A stretch of 5,089 bases of DNA from a virus (taxonomy: Duplodnaviria; Heunggongvirae; Uroviricota; Caudoviricetes): the IMG/VR virus record IMGVR_UViG_2534682001_000016, one strand, 5' to 3'. The notes under the pieces are model-generated. The model worked only from the letters and a program-made list of their open reading frames with translations, made no database searches and was not told the origin of the DNA. Below, one piece after another: positions 1 through 5,017 of the stretch. The stretch's first letter is position 1; every line of letters starts with the position of its first letter. Position numbers and translations under genes: made by a program.

Positions 1-121
1 CAATCTTTGGGGCAATGGAACAAATTGCCGCCCACTGTGAGTCATATTCATCCTGACTTTCCAGAACCATACGAATCGCCCGCTGACGGACTTCGGGGGA
101 AAAACGAGTATTTTTAGTCAT
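1..121 (-). CDS. IS3-family transposase OrfA (helix-turn-helix N-terminal part), 5' partial in window: start codon at 119-121 on the minus strand, continues beyond position 1
   Basis: Minus-strand translation from the ATG (complement of 119-121) gives [40 protein letters not shown], 40 codons. This matches the remembered N-terminus of IS629/IS1203-type OrfA. A purine-rich AGAGG lies a few nt upstream on the minus strand. Not in the supplied ORF track because it is under the length cutoff and truncated. Confidence 0.85.
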
Positions 122-175
122 CCTGTTTACCTCTTTCTCAGGGAGTTTAGTCTCCAGGATTTCCGGGGCGGTTCA
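1..175 (-). mobile_element. Terminal portion of an IS3-family insertion sequence (IS629/IS1203-like), truncated by the window edge; element terminus at about position 175
   Basis: Seen in sequence: the reverse complement of 121-175 reads TGAACCGCCCCGGAAATCCTGGAGACTAAACTCCCTGAGAAAGAGGTAAACAGG followed by ATG. It begins with the 5'-TG characteristic of IS3-family ends and leads straight into an OrfA-type transposase N-terminus. Established knowledge (from memory, not searched): IS629-type elements end in TGAACCGCCCCGG and encode OrfA starting [15 protein letters not shown]. The exact boundary (175) is inferred from the TG terminus. Confidence 0.8.
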
Positions 176-178
176 TTT

Positions 179-202
179 GCCCCGGTTATCCGGGGCTTTT
201 TT
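179..202 (+). terminator. Putative intrinsic (rho-independent) terminator-like hairpin: GCCCCGG / TTAT loop / CCGGGGC followed by TTTTTT
   Basis: Seen in sequence: perfect 7-bp GC-rich inverted repeat at 179-185 and 190-196 with a 4-nt loop, followed immediately by six T at 197-202 on the + strand. Function is inferred from the structure only. Confidence 0.5.
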
Positions 203-215
203 GCAGGTGGAGAAC

Positions 216-605
216 ATGATGTTTCTGAAACAGGGCACGTTTAATTATGAAAAGCAGTCCGTGGTGCTCAGTGAGCTGTCCGGGCTGCAGAGAATTGAAT
301 ATCTGGCGTTTGTTCAGCAGCGAACGGCAAAGTTTGATGCCGAAGAGGGAGAACTGCCGGAGGCTGAACGACAGATTGCTTTTCTGCGGATGGGGATGGA
401 TATCAATGCTTGGCTGGTTTCCCGCTCACTGTGGAATGCGGAACAGTCTCAGGATGTTGAGACGCTTTGCGCATCCGTTATTACAACATGGTCGTATGAT
501 GCCCTGGGAGCGGGGGCGGAGATGGTTCTGTCGCTGAGCGGTATGGGAGCCATTGAGAATGCCGGGGATTTGGAGCATGAGGTGCTGACGCCGGAAAAGT
601 CCTGA
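216..605 (+). CDS. G: Tail assembly chaperone, lambda gpG homolog
   Basis: ORF-track frame 177-605, which opens on TTG; the first ATGs are the tandem pair at 216 and 219. A Shine-Dalgarno-like AGGTGGAG sits at 205-212, so 219 has the better spacing and 216 is the longest ATG start. Product begins MMFLKQGTFNYEKQSVVLSELSGLQRIEYLAF, resembling lambda gpG (which starts MFLK). Stop TGA at 603-605. Position immediately upstream of a T-frame ORF and the tape measure gene matches the conserved G/GT/H arrangement. Confidence 0.88.
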   Translation: MMFLKQGTFNYEKQSVVLSELSGLQRIEYLAFVQQRTAKFDAEEGELPEAERQIAFLRMGMDINAWLVSRSLWNAEQSQDVETLCASVITTWSYDALGAGAEMVLSLSGMGAIENAGDLEHEVLTPEKS

Positions 606-943
606 CGCGGGAAATGCAGTTTGTCATGCGGCTTGCCCGGGAGTTCCGGCGGGCAGACTGGCGGCGGATGCTGTCGGAAATGTCGGCCACTGAGCTTGGT
701 GAGTGGGGCGATTATTTCCGGATGCAGAGCTTCAGTGATGTGTGGATGGATGCGCAGTTTGCCTCGCTGAAGGCATTGATCGTGAGAATGGTGTCCGGTA
801 GCAGTGATGCTGCGGTGGCTGATTTCAGCCTTTTACCGGAAGAGAACGGGATACCGGAGCGAACGGACGAAGAACTGATGCATCTTGGGGAAGGTATTTC
901 CGGAGGTGTGCGTTATGGACCAGATAGCCAACCTGGTCATTGA
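216..943 (+). CDS. T: Tail assembly chaperone fusion protein gpG-T, made by programmed -1 ribosomal frameshift near 593-599; the T part has no independent start requirement
   Basis: Seen in sequence: the G frame (codons start at positions divisible by 3) ends with ACG CCG GAA AAG TCC TGA at 588-605. The -1 frame is open from 581 (preceded by TGA at 578-580) through the stop TGA at 941-943, so the open overlap is 581-602. Candidate slippery heptamer G GAA AAG at 593-599. Established knowledge: lambda makes gpGT by a -1 shift at G GGA AAG near the end of G (Levin, Hendrix and Casjens), and this is conserved across long-tailed phages. The ORF-track entry 614-943 is the T-frame segment from its first internal Met. 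Confidence 0.72.
593..599 (+). promoter_or_regulatory. Candidate -1 programmed frameshift slippery site (G GAA AAG) for G-T synthesis
   Basis: Seen in sequence at 593-599, inside the only window (581-602) where both the G frame and the T frame are open. It differs from the lambda heptamer GGGAAAG by one base (GGAAAAG). The A-site AAG to AAA re-pairing is canonical; the P-site GAA to GGA re-pairing needs a G:U pair at the middle position. Confidence 0.55.
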
Positions 944-3900
944 TTTGGGGATTGATGCGGCAGAGTTTAAAAATGAAATTCCCCGTATCAAAAACCTTCT
1001 GAATGGTGCAGCCAGCGATGCAGAACGGTCTTCTGCCCGTATGCAGCGTTTTATGGAGCGTCAGACTCAGGCCGCCCGGCAGACAATGCAGGCGGCTTCT
1101 TCGGCTGCAACAGCCGCATCCGTCCATGCGCAGACGGTGGAGAAGAGCGCACAGGCTCATGAACGCATGGCCCGCGAGGTGGAGCAAACCCGCCAGCGTA
1201 TGGAGGCACTGAGCCAGAAAATGCGCGAGGAACAGGCGCAGGCCATGGCTCTGGCGGAGGCTCAGGATAAAGCGGCTGCTGCGTTTTATCGTCAGATTGA
1301 CAGTGTGAAACAGGCCGGTGCGGGGCTGCAGGAATTACAGCGTATTCAGCAACAGATCCGACAGGCCAGAAACAGTGGCGGGATTGGTCAGCAGGATTAT
1401 CTGGCGCTGATTTCTGAGGTTACGGCGAAAACCCGTGTTCTTACACAGGCTGAGGAAGAGGCTACCCGACAGAAAGTGGCGTTTATCCGTCAGCTTAAAG
1501 AGCAGGCAACCCGCCAGAATCTTTCTTCTTCTGAGTTGCTTCGTGCTAAGGCTGCCCAGCTGGGGGTAAGCAGTGCTGCAGAAGTGTATATCCGCAAAAT
1601 GGAGCAGGCAGGAAAAGCCACGCATTCGCTGGGTCTGAAAAGTGCAGCAGCCCGTCAGGAGATAGGCGTTCTGATAGGTGAACTGGCCCGCGGCAATTTA
1701 GGTGCGCTGAGGGGATCCGGAATAACGCTGGCTAACCGTGCCGGGTGGATAGACACACTGATGTCACCGAAAGGCATGATGCCAGGAGCGGTTATTGGCG
1801 GTATTGCCGCGGCTGTCTATGGTCTGGGTAAAGCCTGGTATGACGGTCAGAAGGAGGGGGAAGAATTTAACCGCCAGCTGTCGCTGACGGGGCATTATGC
1901 CGGAGTCACTGCCGGGCAGCTGTGGACGCTCAGTCGTGCTATTTCCGGGAATGGTATCACGCAACATGCTGCAGCCGGTGCGCTGGCTCAGGTGGTGGGG
2001 AGTGGTGCATTTCGTGGAAACGATATCGGTATGGTGGCGAGAGCTGCCGCACAGATGGAGCGATCGGTTGGCCAGTCGGTCAGCGATACCATAAATCAGT
2101 TTAAGCGGCTGAAGGATGATCCTGTAAATGCCGCGAAGGCTCTGGACAATGAGCTGCATTTTCTTACTGCCACTCAGCTTGAGCAGATACGCGTCCTTGG
2201 GGAGCAGGGGCGGTCCAGTGATGCTGCACGGATAGCCATGTCTGCACTGGCAGAGGAAACCGGTCGGCGTACTGCGGATATTGATAATAACCTCAATGCG
2301 CTTGGCAGTACGCTGAAGTATCTGTCTGATTTGTGGAGTCGTTTCTGGGATGCGGCCATGAATATTGGTCGTGAAGACTCGCTGGATGAACAGATTGCCG
2401 CTTTACAGGAGAAAGTGTCGCGGGCGAAAAGACTCCCCTGGACGGCATCATCTTCTCAGGTTGAATACGATCAGCAGCGTCTTAACGATCTTCAGGAGAA
2501 AAAACGCCAGAAGGATTTGCAGGATGCAAAAGAGCAGGCAGAGCGGAATTATCAGGAGCAACAGAAACGCCGTAATGCTGAAAATGCTGCACTGAACCGG
2601 ATGAATGAAACGGAAGCAGCACGACATCAGCGTGAAATAGCGCGTATTAATGCCATGCAGTACGCCGATCAGGCTGTCAGGGATGCGGCGATACAACGTG
2701 AAAATGAACGTTACGAGAAAGCCCTGGCATCCGGTAAGAAAAAAACACGCGAAACCCGTAATGATGAGGCCACCCGGTTATTGCTGCAGTACAGTCAGCA
2801 ACAGGCACAGGTGGAAGGACAGATTGCTGCTGCCAGACAGTCAGCAGGCATTGCCACGGAAAGGATGACAGAAGCGCGTAAACAGCTTCTGGCTCTGCAG
2901 CAGCGCATCAGCGACCTGGACGGGAAAAAACTGACGGCAGATGAAAAGAGTGTGCTGGCCCGTAAAGATGAACTGATTCAGGCACTGACGCTGCTGGATG
3001 TAAAACAGCAGGAGCTTCAGAAACAGACGGCACTCAACGAGCTGAAGAAAAAAACAATTCAGCTGACCAGTCAACTGGCTGAAGAAGAGCGCGCTCAGCG
3101 TCAGCAACATGACCTGGATATCGCCACGGTGGGTATGGGTGATCAGCAGCGACAGCGATATCAGGTACAACTGAGTCTTCGCCAGAAATACCAGCAACAG
3201 CTGGAGCAGTTGAGGCGGGATAGTGAGCAGAAAGGGACATATAACACGGATGACTACAGAAAGGCCGAGCAGGCGCTGACGGAGAGCCTGAACCGACAAC
3301 TGAATGAGAATCGCCGTTACTGGCAACAGCTTGAAGTTGTACAGGGTAACTGGAAAAACGGAGTCCTGCGTGCATTTCAGGATTTTACCGTGGATGCAGA
3401 TAATACGGCAGAAACAGCAGAACAGGTGTTCTCGTCAGCCTTCAGCAACATGGGAAATGGCCTGGCAACTTTTGTCACTACCGGCAAACTCAATTTCAAA
3501 TCCTTCACCTCTTCTGTGCTGTCAGATATGGCGAAAATCCTGGCGCAGGCAACCATGATGAAATCGATAAAAGGGATTGGCAGTGTACTGGGATTTGATC
3601 TCAGCAGCCTTTCCCTGAATGCCAATGGGGGGATTTATCAGTCTGCTGATTTGAGTCGTTACAGTGGCACGGTGGTTAACCGTCCGACGTTTTTTGCTTT
3701 TGCAAAAGGCGCGGGTGTGATGGGGGAAGCGGGACCTGAAGCCATTCTGCCATTGCGTCGTGGTGCTGACGGTAAGCTGGGGGTTGTGGCGGATATTGGG
3801 GGTTCAGGTATGGCGATGTTTTCCCCGCAGTACAACATCGAGATCAATAACGATGGCACGAACGGGCAGATAGGTCCGGCTGCCCTGAAGGCGGTTTATG

Positions 3901-3980
3901 ACCTCGGGAAAAAAGCGGCAGCGGACTTTATGCAACAGCAGGCCCGTGATGGTGGTCGGTTAAGTGGAGCATATCGGTAA
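915..3980 (+). CDS. H: Tail tape measure protein (tail length determinant), lambda gpH homolog, about 1021 aa
   Basis: ORF-track frame 885-3980, which opens on TTG; the first ATG is at 915, preceded by GGAGG at 902-906 with 8-nt spacing. N-terminus MDQIANLVIDLGIDAAEFKNE resembles lambda gpH (remembered as MAEPVGDLVVDLSLDAARFDEQ). The C-terminus EINNDGTNGQIGPAALKAVYD...RDGGRLSGAYR is near-identical to the remembered lambda gpH C-terminus. Long Ala/Gln/Arg/Glu-rich predicted coiled-coil body typical of tape measure proteins. Overlaps the end of the T frame by 29 nt. Stop TAA at 3978-3980. Confidence 0.95.
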   Translation: MDQIANLVIDLGIDAAEFKNEIPRIKNLLNGAASDAERSSARMQRFMERQTQAARQTMQAASSAATAASVHAQTVEKSAQAHERMAREVEQTRQRMEALSQKMREEQAQAMALAEAQDKAAAAFYRQIDSVKQAGAGLQELQRIQQQIRQARNSGGIGQQDYLALISEVTAKTRVLTQAEEEATRQKVAFIRQLKEQATRQNLSSSELLRAKAAQLGVSSAAEVYIRKMEQAGKATHSLGLKSAAARQEIGVLIGELARGNLGALRGSGITLANRAGWIDTLMSPKGMMPGAVIGGIAAAVYGLGKAWYDGQKEGEEFNRQLSLTGHYAGVTAGQLWTLSRAISGNGITQHAAAGALAQVVGSGAFRGNDIGMVARAAAQMERSVGQSVSDTINQFKRLKDDPVNAAKALDNELHFLTATQLEQIRVLGEQGRSSDAARIAMSALAEETGRRTADIDNNLNALGSTLKYLSDLWSRFWDAAMNIGREDSLDEQIAALQEKVSRAKRLPWTASSSQVEYDQQRLNDLQEKKRQKDLQDAKEQAERNYQEQQKRRNAENAALNRMNETEAARHQREIARINAMQYADQAVRDAAIQRENERYEKALASGKKKTRETRNDEATRLLLQYSQQQAQVEGQIAAARQSAGIATERMTEARKQLLALQQRISDLDGKKLTADEKSVLARKDELIQALTLLDVKQQELQKQTALNELKKKTIQLTSQLAEEERAQRQQHDLDIATVGMGDQQRQRYQVQLSLRQKYQQQLEQLRRDSEQKGTYNTDDYRKAEQALTESLNRQLNENRRYWQQLEVVQGNWKNGVLRAFQDFTVDADNTAETAEQVFSSAFSNMGNGLATFVTTGKLNFKSFTSSVLSDMAKILAQATMMKSIKGIGSVLGFDLSSLSLNANGGIYQSADLSRYSGTVVNRPTFFAFAKGAGVMGEAGPEAILPLRRGADGKLGVVADIGGSGMAMFSPQYNIEINNDGTNGQIGPAALKAVYDLGKKAAADFMQQQARDGGRLSGAYR

Positions 3981-4309
3981 TGGAGACGTTTCACTGGAAA
4001 GTGCGCCCGGATATGAATGTGGTATCAGAGCCGAAAGTGGTGACAGTGAAGCTGGGCGATGGTTATGAACAGCGTCGTGCGGCGGGACTGAATAACCAGT
4101 TGTCGACTTACAGCGTGACGATACGTGTTCGTAAATGTGAACACCCATCTTTAAAAGCCTTTCTGGAACGGCACGGTGGCGTCCGTGCATTTCAGTGGAC
4201 GCCACCTTATGACTGGAAACCGATCAGGGTGGTTTGTCGTAAATGGTCGGCAAGCGTGGGGGCGCTGTGGGTAACCATAACGGCAGATTTTGAACAGGTC
4301 GTGGCATAG
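3980..4309 (+). CDS. M: Minor tail protein, lambda gpM homolog (tail tip assembly)
   Basis: 109-aa ORF starting METFHWKVRPDMNVVSEPK and ending ADFEQVVA. It matches the remembered lambda gpM (MKTFRWKVKPGM ... WTPPY ... EFEQVV), including the conserved GDGYEQR and WTPPYDWK motifs. The ATG overlaps the H stop in a TAATG arrangement at 3978-3982. Stop TAG at 4307-4309. Confidence 0.93.
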   Translation: METFHWKVRPDMNVVSEPKVVTVKLGDGYEQRRAAGLNNQLSTYSVTIRVRKCEHPSLKAFLERHGGVRAFQWTPPYDWKPIRVVCRKWSASVGALWVTITADFEQVVA

Positions 4310-4318
4310 GAGGCTCTG

Positions 4319-5017
4319 ATGCAGGATATTCCACAGGAAACACATCATGAGACGACACGCCTCACTCAGTCAGCCCAGGCGGTGCTCTGGGAAATCGATC
4401 TGACAGAGGTCGGTGGTGAACGTTATTTTTTCTGTAATGAGCAGAACGAAAAAGGTGAGCCGGTTACCTGGCAGGGGCGGCAGTATCAGGCATACCCCAT
4501 TCAGGGGACGGGATTTGAACTGAACGGCAAGGGCAGTTCTGCCCGTCCGACACTGACGGTTTCTAACCTGCACGGCATGGTCACGGGGATGGCGGAAGAC
4601 CTGCAGAGTCTGGTCGGCGGAACGGTGGTCCGGCGTAAGGTTTACGCCCGTTTTCTGGATGCGGTGAACTTCGTCAACGGAAACAGCGACGCCGATCCGG
4701 AGCAGGAGGTGATCAGCCGCTGGCGCATTGAGCAGTGCAGCGAACTGAGCGCGGTGAGTGCCTCTTTTGTACTGTCCACGCCGACGGAAACGGACGGCGC
4801 TGTTTTTCCGGGACGTATCATGCTGGCCAACACCTGCACCTGGACCTATCGCGGCGATGAGTGCGGTTATCACGGTCCGGCGGTCGCGGATGAATATGAC
4901 CAGCCAACGTCCGATATCACGAAGGATAAATGCAGCAAATGCCTGAGCGGTTGTAAGTTCCGCAATAACGTCGGCAACTTTGGCGGCTTCCTTTCCATTA
5001 ACAAACTTTCGCAGTAA
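4319..5017 (+). CDS. L: Minor tail protein, lambda gpL homolog (tail tip; C-terminal Cys-rich iron-sulfur cluster region)
   Basis: 232-aa ORF with a strong Shine-Dalgarno AGGAGG at 4308-4313, 5 nt before the ATG at 4319. Position after M and before K matches lambda order. C-terminal segment contains five cysteines (TCTW, ECGY, KCSKC, SGCK), consistent with the cysteine-rich region that binds an Fe-S cluster in lambda gpL-type proteins. Stop TAA at 5015-5017. Confidence 0.93.
   Translation: MQDIPQETHHETTRLTQSAQAVLWEIDLTEVGGERYFFCNEQNEKGEPVTWQGRQYQAYPIQGTGFELNGKGSSARPTLTVSNLHGMVTGMAEDLQSLVGGTVVRRKVYARFLDAVNFVNGNSDADPEQEVISRWRIEQCSELSAVSASFVLSTPTETDGAVFPGRIMLANTCTWTYRGDECGYHGPAVADEYDQPTSDITKDKCSKCLSGCKFRNNVGNFGGFLSINKLSQ

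What the first reader, a model, noticed from the sequence alone, without database searches (positions are those of the whole stretch)
581..605. G-T programmed frameshift is conserved but the slippery heptamer is GGAAAAG, not the lambda GGGAAAG
The frame relationship is exactly as expected for a -1 shift, and the only region where both frames are open is 581-602. The best candidate site there is G GAA AAG at 593-599. The A-site shift (AAG to AAA) is canonical, but the P-site codon GAA must re-pair to GGA, needing a G:U pair at the central anticodon position. This may set a different frameshift efficiency, and so a different G to GT ratio, which in lambda is about 30 to 1 and matters for tail assembly. 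No stable downstream stem-loop is obvious by eye, as in lambda.
Basis: partly seen in the sequence, partly recalled or inferred. Interest (0 to 1): 0.45.

Follow-up and report, generated by a model that had tools for sequence, protein, structure and literature searches.

The report
Known variant phage tail frameshift site
The window holds the ordinary G-T tail-chaperone frameshift site of a common E. coli prophage, and its GGAAAAG slip sequence is a widespread variant already annotated in phage N15, not a new one.

Summary
G (216/219-605) ends at TGA 603-605. The T frame is -1 and is open only from 581. The sole in-phase slip motif in the 22-nt overlap is G_GAA_AAG at 593-599.

The window is an E. 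coli PA11 prophage of the mEp460/cdtI/Ayreon type. A near-identical G-T region occurs in 1848 of 5426 complete E. coli genomes.

At the exactly homologous, gaplessly aligned position, GGAAAAG is also found in N15, phi80, HK225, mEp213, mEp237, Gifsy-1 and a Providencia phage. The N15 GenBank record annotates it as the "slippery sequence for -1 translational frameshift". Lambda-type relatives have GGGAAAG, VT1-Sakai has AAAAAAG, and Vibrio phages have CCCAAAA.

In a heptamer-blind IMG/VR sample, GGAAAAG (52 loci) was as frequent as GGGAAAG (54) and spread over more lineages. Its synonymous positions 1, 4 and 7 are fixed (13/14, 14/14, 14/14 clusters), while neighbouring synonymous sites vary freely. 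The ATG at 614 is not conserved (2/21 clusters), which argues against independent T translation.

Efficiency is untested in vivo. In vitro, G GAA AAG is much less slippery than G GGA AAG. The window has no convincing downstream hairpin but has an SD-like GAGGTG 8 nt upstream.

Verdict: real, ordinary, already known.

The parts
216..605 (+). Gene G, tail assembly chaperone (0 frame). ATG at 216 and 219; PGAP starts at 219, giving 128 aa.
   Evidence: ORF list; PGAP annotation 'phage tail assembly chaperone G' in the identical PA11 record; Pfam PF06894 E=7.8e-39.
579..584 (+). SD-like GAGGTG, 8 nt upstream of the heptamer (GAGG is 11 nt before heptamer base 2). Candidate upstream stimulator.
   Evidence: It meets the Sharma et al. 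2014 SD rule. Duplex with the anti-SD is -9.2 kcal/mol, the second strongest site in 216-900; dnaX AGGGAG gives -7.0 by the same calculation. GAGG[T/C]G is kept in 86/86 close relatives. A function is only inferred.
578..580 (+). TGA in the -1 (T) frame. It sets the upstream limit of the overlap in which a shift can be productive.
   Evidence: Frame translations.
593..599 (+). Slip site G_GAA_AAG (P-site GAA, A-site AAG; after the -1 shift GGA, AAA).
   Evidence: It is the only in-phase slip motif in the overlap. The same heptamer lies in the same column in N15, where it is annotated as the slippery sequence, and in phi80, HK225, mEp213, mEp237, Gifsy-1, mEp460 and a Providencia phage. Synonymous positions 1, 4 and 7 are fixed in 13/14, 14/14 and 14/14 clusters.
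603..605 (+). TGA stop of G (context TGAC), one sense codon after the heptamer.
599..943 (+). T segment, read in the -1 frame from GTC 599. The predicted gpGT is 241/242 aa with junction ...LTPEK|VLTREMQF...
   Evidence: Translation; Pfam PF06223 on fusion residues 157-231. The -1 peptide GK[VA]L..E..F..LAREF.R.DWR is conserved from the heptamer onward in all relatives.
614..616 (+). ATG used by PGAP and GenBank annotators as the start of a separate T gene. It is probably just an internal Met of gpGT.
   Evidence: There is no usable SD: GGGAA abuts the ATG. The homologous codon is ATG in only 2 of 21 clusters and is otherwise CTG, CTT, ATT, AGG, CGC, CGT or AAG. Some lineages have no -1-frame start codon within 66 nt of the heptamer.
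915..3980 (+). Tape measure gene H (context). With G and T it gives the canonical gene order.
   Evidence: PGAP annotation of the identical record; ORF list.

Best explanation
This is the programmed -1 ribosomal frameshift site of a lambda-type tail assembly chaperone gene pair. Most ribosomes read G through ...CCG GAA AAG TCC and stop at TGA 603-605, giving gpG. A minority slip back one base when GAA and AAG occupy the P and A sites. tRNA-Lys (mnm5s2UUU) re-pairs from AAG to AAA. tRNA-Glu (mnm5s2UUC) re-pairs from GAA to GGA with Watson-Crick pairs at codon positions 1 and 3 and G:U at position 2. Translation then continues in the T frame from GTC 599 to 943, giving gpGT (...TPEK-VLTREMQF...). 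The G part of gpGT binds the tape measure protein and the T part recruits the major tail protein, as in lambda. Shown here: the frame geometry, the homology, the positional identity with the lambda and N15 slip sites, and purifying selection on the heptamer's synonymous bases. Inferred: that tRNA-Glu re-pairing contributes (from the fixed G at position 1); that efficiency is at or below lambda's roughly 4% unless stimulated; and that the SD-like GAGGTG 8 nt upstream may act as a stimulator, since no convincing downstream hairpin is present.
For: Geometry. Homology: Pfam G and T domains, and the lambda GT alignment is in register at the junction. Gene order V-G-T-H-M-L in identical and related records. 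The heptamer column is shared by 18 phages with GGAAAAG, GGGAAAG, AAAAAAG or CCCAAAA, all offering Lys AAR in the A site. N15's GGAAAAG is annotated as the slippery sequence, and the Gifsy-1 and HK225 records describe T as the frameshift part. The blind IMG/VR sample gave 52 GGAAAAG and 54 GGGAAAG loci. Flanking synonymous sites vary (at most 6/14 clusters share a base), while heptamer positions 1, 4 and 7 are fixed at 13/14, 14/14 and 14/14. This holds even though the preceding codon is CCG, GCG, CTG or TTG, and AAG is the minor Lys codon (0.24-0.35). The exact junction is 100% identical in phage Ayreon, whose record lists E. coli K12 as host, and GGAAAAG is kept in 86/86 close relatives. Non-canonical G_GA-type P-site re-pairing and A_AAG slippage are documented.
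Against: No protein, ribosome-profiling or reporter data exist for this sequence. In a purified E. coli system G GAA AAG gave mainly 0-frame product. A_AAG alone is barely shifty without a stimulator (about 0.15%). No convincing stimulator is demonstrated in the window: downstream folding gives z of -0.4 to -1.6. The SD-like element is only modestly unexpected. In this particular prophage an IS1203 sits just upstream of G, so expression here may be disturbed.
Confidence: 0.85

Rival explanations
1. Same frameshift, different mechanics. Only tRNA-Lys slips on A_AAG (tetramer or NNA_AAG hexamer type, as at CGA_AAG in IS1222 and B. subtilis cdd). tRNA-Glu does not re-pair, and the leading G is irrelevant.
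For: A_AAG is the most shift-prone tetramer in E. coli. NNA_AAG hexamer sites are used naturally. [quoted passage not shown] One IMG/VR locus has A_GAA_AAG (L176).
Against: Position 1 is G in 13/14 diverged clusters across four different preceding codons (CCG, GCG, CTG, TTG), while other synonymous sites vary. In every other heptamer class of the family, position 1 also matches the P-site re-pairing rule. tRNA-Glu carries a restricted-wobble mnm5s2U34; such tRNAs are, from memory of Licznar et al. 2003 (not readable here), the poor class for hexamer shifting.
Confidence: 0.15
2. T is made on its own from ATG 614, for example by termination-reinitiation after TGA 603-605, as current PGAP and GenBank annotations imply. 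No G-T fusion is needed.
For: The ATG lies 8 nt after the G stop and is kept in the close relatives. Public records annotate T as a separate CDS from this ATG.
Against: There is no SD at a usable distance. The ATG is present in only 2/21 clusters, and several lineages have no start codon within 66 nt. The -1 frame peptide upstream of this codon (GK[VA]L..E) is conserved. The -1 frame opens only 12 nt before the heptamer. In lambda, T is made only as gpGT (review).
Confidence: 0.05
3. The site is a decaying remnant. This copy sits in a defective prophage with an IS inserted upstream, and the G-to-A difference from lambda is a disabling mutation.
For: IS1203 is inserted between V and G in this copy. 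In vitro the variant is weakly slippery.
Against: The identical junction is present in sequenced phage genomes: Ayreon at 100%, mEp460, cdtI, Tritos and phi458, and the same heptamer is in N15, phi80 and HK225. Those phages being viable is my own knowledge, not a tool result. GGAAAAG is fixed across many diverged lineages.
Confidence: 0.02

Closest known systems
Phage N15 genes 14/15 (GenBank AF064539), -1 frameshift at GGAAAAG
   Same: Identical heptamer, in the same phase and the same alignment column. Same G and T protein families and same V-G-T-H gene order. The record marks the heptamer as 'slippery sequence for -1 translational frameshift'.
   Different: About 36% protein identity. In N15 the G stop is 5 codons after the heptamer, and a predicted 75-nt branched hairpin (-41 kcal/mol, z -4.3) starts 6 nt downstream. 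The window has a stop after 1 codon, no such hairpin, and an SD-like GAGGTG upstream.
Phage lambda G / G-T frameshift at G_GGA_AAG (Levin et al. 1993; about 4%, G:GT about 30:1)
   Same: Homologous proteins (38% over the fusion). The site is at the homologous position. Same A-site event (AAG to AAA by tRNA-Lys mnm5s2UUU) and same role in tail assembly.
   Different: The P-site codon is GGA (tRNA-Gly, fully cognate re-pairing to GGG) in lambda and GAA (tRNA-Glu, G:U at position 2) here. In the window both slipping tRNAs carry mnm5s2U34. Lambda has a predicted downstream hairpin that the window lacks.
NNA_AAG hexanucleotide / A_AAG tetranucleotide -1 sites (IS1222 G_CGA_AAG, B. subtilis cdd A_CGA_AAG, IS3 C_CA(A)_AAG)
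   Same: Shift driven by tRNA-Lys AAG to AAA, with a P-site codon that cannot re-pair perfectly.
   Different: Here the P-site tRNA can still form 2 Watson-Crick pairs and 1 G:U pair in the -1 frame. The first base is under selection, so the site behaves as an imperfect heptamer rather than a hexamer.
Viral heptamers with X_XX = G_GA (G_GAU_UUY of insect-specific flaviviruses, dianthoviruses and mesoniviruses) and the actinophage G_GGG_GAA and 'twofour' motif classes in PRFect
   Same: The same kind of departure from XXX: a GA-codon tRNA re-pairing to GG with a G:U pair.
   Different: Different hosts, tRNAs and A-site codons. In G_GGG_GAA the GAA-to-GGA re-pairing is on the second (3') codon of the heptamer, not the first as here.

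Membership tests
Lambda-type G/GT tail assembly chaperone frameshift (Xu, Hendrix & Duda 2004 class) | Two ORFs between the major tail protein gene and the tape measure gene | tested here: met
   G and T lie directly upstream of H in the window. The order V-G-T-H is seen in the identical PA11 record and in Ayreon, mEp460, Gifsy-1 and N15. In PA11 an IS separates V from G.
Lambda-type G/GT tail assembly chaperone frameshift (Xu, Hendrix & Duda 2004 class) | The second ORF is in the -1 frame, overlaps the 3' end of the first, and lacks its own conserved start | tested here: met
   The overlap is 581-602. ATG 614 is conserved in only 2/21 clusters.
Lambda-type G/GT tail assembly chaperone frameshift (Xu, Hendrix & Duda 2004 class) | Sequence homology to lambda gpG and gpT | tested here: met
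   PF06894 E=7.8e-39 and PF06223 E=2e-14. 38% identity to lambda GT, aligned in register.
Lambda-type G/GT tail assembly chaperone frameshift (Xu, Hendrix & Duda 2004 class) | A conserved slip motif in the overlap, in the phase of the upstream ORF | tested here: met
   G_GAA_AAG is in phase, and its synonymous sites are fixed across 14 clusters.
Lambda-type G/GT tail assembly chaperone frameshift (Xu, Hendrix & Duda 2004 class) | A fusion protein gpGT is actually made, at a low fixed ratio to gpG | not testable with these tools
   It needs a western blot, mass spectrometry or a reporter assay. No data were found in the searchable literature.
Canonical X_XXY_YYZ slippery heptamer | XXX are three identical bases, so the P-site tRNA re-pairs with at most a wobble-position mismatch | tested here: not met
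   XXX is GGA. P-site re-pairing needs G:U at the middle position. The YYZ part (A_AAG) is canonical.
SD-stimulated -1 frameshift (dnaX / IS911 type) | An SD-like sequence 6-17 nt before base 2 of the motif (Sharma et al. 2014 rule) | tested here: met
   GAGG has spacer 11 and AGGTG spacer 9. Duplex with the anti-SD is -9.2 kcal/mol.
SD-stimulated -1 frameshift (dnaX / IS911 type) | The SD-like element is conserved beyond chance and raises frameshifting | tested here: inconclusive
   It is kept in 86/86 close relatives. It is present in 6/13 GGAAAAG clusters against a background of about 0.18 (my binomial estimate is about 0.02). However, it arises simply from Glu-GAG followed by a Val or Ala codon, and it is absent in N15, phi80 and the Providencia type. 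Function was not tested.
Hairpin/pseudoknot-stimulated -1 frameshift (IS3 family type) | A stable structure starting 4-10 nt after the motif, more stable than its context | tested here: not met
   The best rule-conforming hairpin in the window is 32 nt at 9.2 kcal/mol (0.29 kcal/mol per nt). z is -0.4 to -1.05 against shuffles and -1.6 against synonymous recodings. There is no family-wide consensus structure and no Rfam hit.

The most novel reading that the evidence does not exclude
GGAAAAG is intrinsically a poor slip site: it gives almost no shift in a purified system. The family may therefore rely on cis stimulators that have gone unremarked. One candidate is a conserved branched hairpin of about 70-75 nt starting 6-9 nt downstream in lambda, N15 and phi80-type phages. 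The other is an upstream SD-like element 9-11 nt from the site in the window/Gifsy-1 lineage. If so, the G:GT ratio would be set by two interchangeable architectures. In the GGAAAAG phages it would also be doubly sensitive to host mnm5s2U34 thiolation, because both slipping tRNAs (Glu and Lys) carry that modification.
Probability: 0.2. Interest if true: 0.5.

Novelty: already known. Interest (0 to 1): 0.15.

Why it matters
It matters mainly for annotation. PGAP and most depositors annotate T here as a free-standing gene starting at ATG 614, in a prophage module present in about a third of complete E. coli genomes. The comparative evidence says the real product is a G-T fusion made at GGAAAAG. 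A smaller scientific point remains open. A heptamer that biochemists use as a 'less slippery' control is, in nature, the commonest G-T slip site of this phage family. Measuring its in vivo efficiency and finding what, if anything, boosts it would say how tightly the G:GT ratio is really constrained.

Tried and rejected
1. The search for related loci with the fusion protein or the window+lambda alignment returned only near-identical copies. Diversity came instead from tblastn on phage records and a heptamer-blind DNA pattern scan.
2. A family-wide downstream RNA structure: RNAalifold found none (-3.4 kcal/mol). Rfam gave nothing at the junction.
3. A clean split between 'hairpin lineages without SD' and 'SD lineages without hairpin': the counts lean that way. 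With 21 non-independent clusters it is not significant by my estimate, so I do not claim it.
4. An 8-bp helix CGCCGGAA (589-596) / UUCCGGCG (644-651) appears in the MFE fold. I rejected it as a stimulator because it contains the slip site and must be melted when the ribosome is there.
5. RNA polymerase slippage: rejected, because the A run is only 4 long.
6. Other slip sites in 581-602: none.
7. Literature: no paper in the searchable library discusses GGAAAAG in phage tails. Licznar 2003, Xu 2004 and Xu 2013 could not be opened. Statements about them rest on reviews or on memory, and are marked as such.

Full report
WHAT IS THERE. The window matches the E. coli PA11 chromosome at 100%. It is the tail-assembly module of a lambdoid prophage of the mEp460/cdtI/Ayreon type. 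The region 173-1000 is 100% identical to phage Ayreon and 97.6-99.6% identical to 16 other sequenced phage records. A match occurs in 1848 of 5426 complete E. coli genomes. PGAP annotates G (window 219-605), T (614-943), tape measure H (915-3980), M (3980-4309) and L (4319-5017).

THE OBSERVATION. G reads ...GAG GTG CTG ACG CCG GAA AAG TCC TGA, with the stop at 603-605. The -1 frame has a TGA at 578-580 and is open from 581 to 943. The two frames therefore overlap only at 581-602. In G's phase the only slip-type motif in this stretch is G_GAA_AAG at 593-599. The heptamer by itself is not rare: 2 copies in the window against 0.91 expected. What matters is its phase, its place in a 22-nt overlap, and its conservation.

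IS IT THE G-T FRAMESHIFT? Reading through the site gives a 241/242-aa protein that carries Pfam Phage_TAC_2 (E=7.8e-39) followed by Phage_tail_T (E=2e-14). It aligns with lambda gpGT at 38% identity, with PEK|V opposite lambda's AGK|V.

I collected 18 diverse phage junctions by tblastn. From the heptamer onward they align without a single gap in my positional extraction.
- The heptamer column holds GGAAAAG in the window, mEp460, Gifsy-1, Providencia PSTCR8lys, mEp213, phi80, an Enterobacter phage, HK225, N15 and mEp237.
- It holds GGGAAAG in lambda and three PhiR phages, AAAAAAG in VT1-Sakai and an Stx1 phage, and CCCAAAA in two Vibrio phages.
- All of these put a Lys AAR codon in the A site.
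- The -1 frame peptide GK[VA]L..E..F..LAREF.R.DWR..ML is conserved from the heptamer itself, that is, upstream of the window's ATG 614.

The codon homologous to that ATG is ATG in only 2 of 21 clusters at 90% identity. Elsewhere it is CTG, CTT, ATT, AGG, CGC, CGT or AAG. Some lineages (phi80/mEp213, Providencia, L153) have no -1-frame start codon within 66 nt of the heptamer. The window's ATG has no SD at a workable distance. Independent translation of T is therefore not the conserved mechanism.

IS GGAAAAG UNUSUAL? No. The N15 GenBank record marks its GGAAAAG as 'slippery sequence for -1 translational frameshift' (sequence checked). The Gifsy-1 and HK225 records describe their T ORFs as the frameshift half.

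To count variants without bias, I scanned IMG/VR with a 21-base pattern made only of invariant T-domain positions downstream of the heptamer.
- Among 118 loci the heptamer column held GGGAAAG 54 times, GGAAAAG 52 times, AAAAAAG 8 times and CCCAAAA twice. There was one A_GAA_AAG and one A_GGA_AAG.
- After clustering at 90% together with the phage records, GGAAAAG occupies 13 of 21 clusters and GGGAAAG only 2. It is the more widely spread form.
- All 86 close relatives fetched earlier have it.

SELECTION ON THE HEPTAMER. In the 14 GAAAAG clusters, the third-codon positions of the six codons upstream are free: no base exceeds 6/14. Heptamer position 1 is G in 13/14, position 4 is A in 14/14, and position 7 is G in 14/14.
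- Positions 1 and 4 are synonymous in G and are not decoded in the T frame, so coding cannot explain them.
- The codon supplying position 1 is CCG, GCG, CTG or TTG.
- AAG is the minor Lys codon (0.24 in E. coli, 0.35 in lambda).
- The fixed G at position 1 is the evidence that tRNA-Glu re-pairing to GGA matters. The site thus behaves as an imperfect heptamer, not just as an A_AAG tetramer.

MECHANISM AND EFFICIENCY. E. coli tRNA-Lys, tRNA-Glu and tRNA-Gln all carry mnm5s2U34, so both slipping tRNAs here do. Several published points bear on efficiency.
- A_AAG is the best tetramer, but it is barely above background without a stimulator (about 0.15%) and reaches 5.6% with the IS3 pseudoknot. G_GGA_AAG is among the three best heptamers.
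- Departures such as X_XX = G_GA are documented in several viruses. PRFect lists 'twofour'-type motifs and discusses GAA-to-GGA re-pairing through G:U.
- Most directly, Peng et al. 2019 used AUG GAA AAG as their 'less slippery' control next to AUG GGA AAG. With wild-type EF-G it gave mainly 0-frame product at all EF-G concentrations.
- Lambda keeps the 0 frame about 96% of the time, and the G:GT ratio of about 30:1 matters for tail assembly.

No in vivo number for GGAAAAG was found.

STIMULATORS. I applied the published rules of Sharma et al..
- Upstream, the window has an SD-like GAGG/AGGTG at spacers 11 and 9. Its predicted duplex with the anti-SD is -9.2 kcal/mol, the second strongest in 216-900; dnaX AGGGAG gives -7.0 by the same calculation.
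- Such elements occur in 6 of 13 GGAAAAG clusters against a per-position background of about 0.18. This is suggestive only, and here the element follows simply from Glu-GAG followed by Val-GTG.
- Downstream, the window has only a weak rule-conforming hairpin (32 nt, 9.2 kcal/mol).
- Its folding energy is not unusual: z is -0.4 to -1.05 against dinucleotide shuffles and -1.6 against synonymous recodings.
- No structure is shared by the whole family, and Rfam has nothing at the junction.

A SIDE RESULT. Lambda, N15, phi80, mEp213, HK225 and Sakai-type sequences do fold into a 69-75-nt branched hairpin that begins 6-9 nt after the heptamer.
- It is worth -27 to -46 kcal/mol.
- z is -3.2 to -4.3 against shuffles and -2.3 to -4.1 against synonymous recodings for N15, phi80, lambda, L153 and L208; the Sakai-type sequence gave only -1.6.
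- 89.5% of cells are paired, against 23-42% in slid controls. One pair covaries perfectly (GC in 11 sequences, AU in 10).
- The covariation probably reflects few evolutionary events, and the region is protein-coding, so this is a lead and not a demonstration.
- It does mean that 'no stem-loop, as in lambda' is true of the window but doubtful for lambda.

VERDICT. The finding is real and correctly read. It describes a known, widespread variant of a textbook recoding site. The only open questions are quantitative: how efficient GGAAAAG is in vivo, and whether an SD-like element or a hairpin assists it.

Noticed in passing
window 1-175 (minus strand; transposase start codon at 119-121): This is the left end of an IS3-family IS1203/IS629 copy inserted in the V-G intergenic spacer. 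PGAP calls it 'IS3-like element IS1203 family transposase, programmed frameshift'. Among the 30 rows listed from the E. coli search, only PA11 matched window 150-172; nearly all the others align from 173. The insertion may be polar on, or drive, G-T-H expression in this prophage.
   Followed up: partly
window 179-196: A terminator-like hairpin GCCCCGG-TTAT-CCGGGGC followed by TTTTTT lies just upstream of G. The equivalent feature is annotated as a terminator or stem-loop between V and G in the mEp460, Ayreon, N15 and HK225 records.
   Followed up: no
L004 (lambda) 617-697; L099 (N15) 809-889; L098 (phi80) 815-895: A 69-75-nt branched hairpin is predicted to start 6-9 nt after the slip site in lambda, N15, phi80, mEp213, HK225 and Sakai-type relatives. 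It is significantly more stable than shuffles and, for most of those tested, than synonymous recodings, and it has one perfectly covarying pair. It is absent from the window lineage. It is a possible unrecognised stimulator of the lambda-type G-T frameshift. I could not check the primary lambda paper.
   Followed up: partly
window 600-605 and homologous positions in L092, L094, L124, L138, L153, L162, L167, L175, L201, L208: In 13 of 21 clusters the G stop codon lies 0 or 1 codon after the heptamer, and TGA, TAG and TAA are all used. In lambda, N15 and Sakai types it lies 5 codons after. In the Providencia type, G_GAA_AAG is followed directly by TAG, a classic 'shifty stop' arrangement. Whether stop proximity affects shifting is unknown.
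   Followed up: no
L176 and L177 (IMG/VR contigs 2648501177_000013 and 2703718809_000019): Two relatives have A instead of G at heptamer position 1: A_GAA_AAG in an N15-like context and A_GGA_AAG in a lambda-like context. They could be natural tests of the importance of position 1, or decayed prophages.
   Followed up: no
window 614-943, and the same ORF in public records: PGAP/RefSeq and most GenBank depositors annotate T as an independent CDS, with starts that differ between records: ATG 614 here and in mEp460, but a later start in Ayreon. No ribosomal-slippage join is given, so this family's GT fusion is systematically missing from protein databases.
   Followed up: partly
window 589-596 with 644-651: A perfect 8-bp complementarity, CGCCGGAA / TTCCGGCG, joins the 5' half of the slip site to the T-frame 'EFRR' codons (MFE fold). 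By my own reading of the aligned sequences (not a tool result), Gifsy-1 and some class-B relatives keep it. It would be melted by a ribosome at the site, so it is probably incidental.
   Followed up: no
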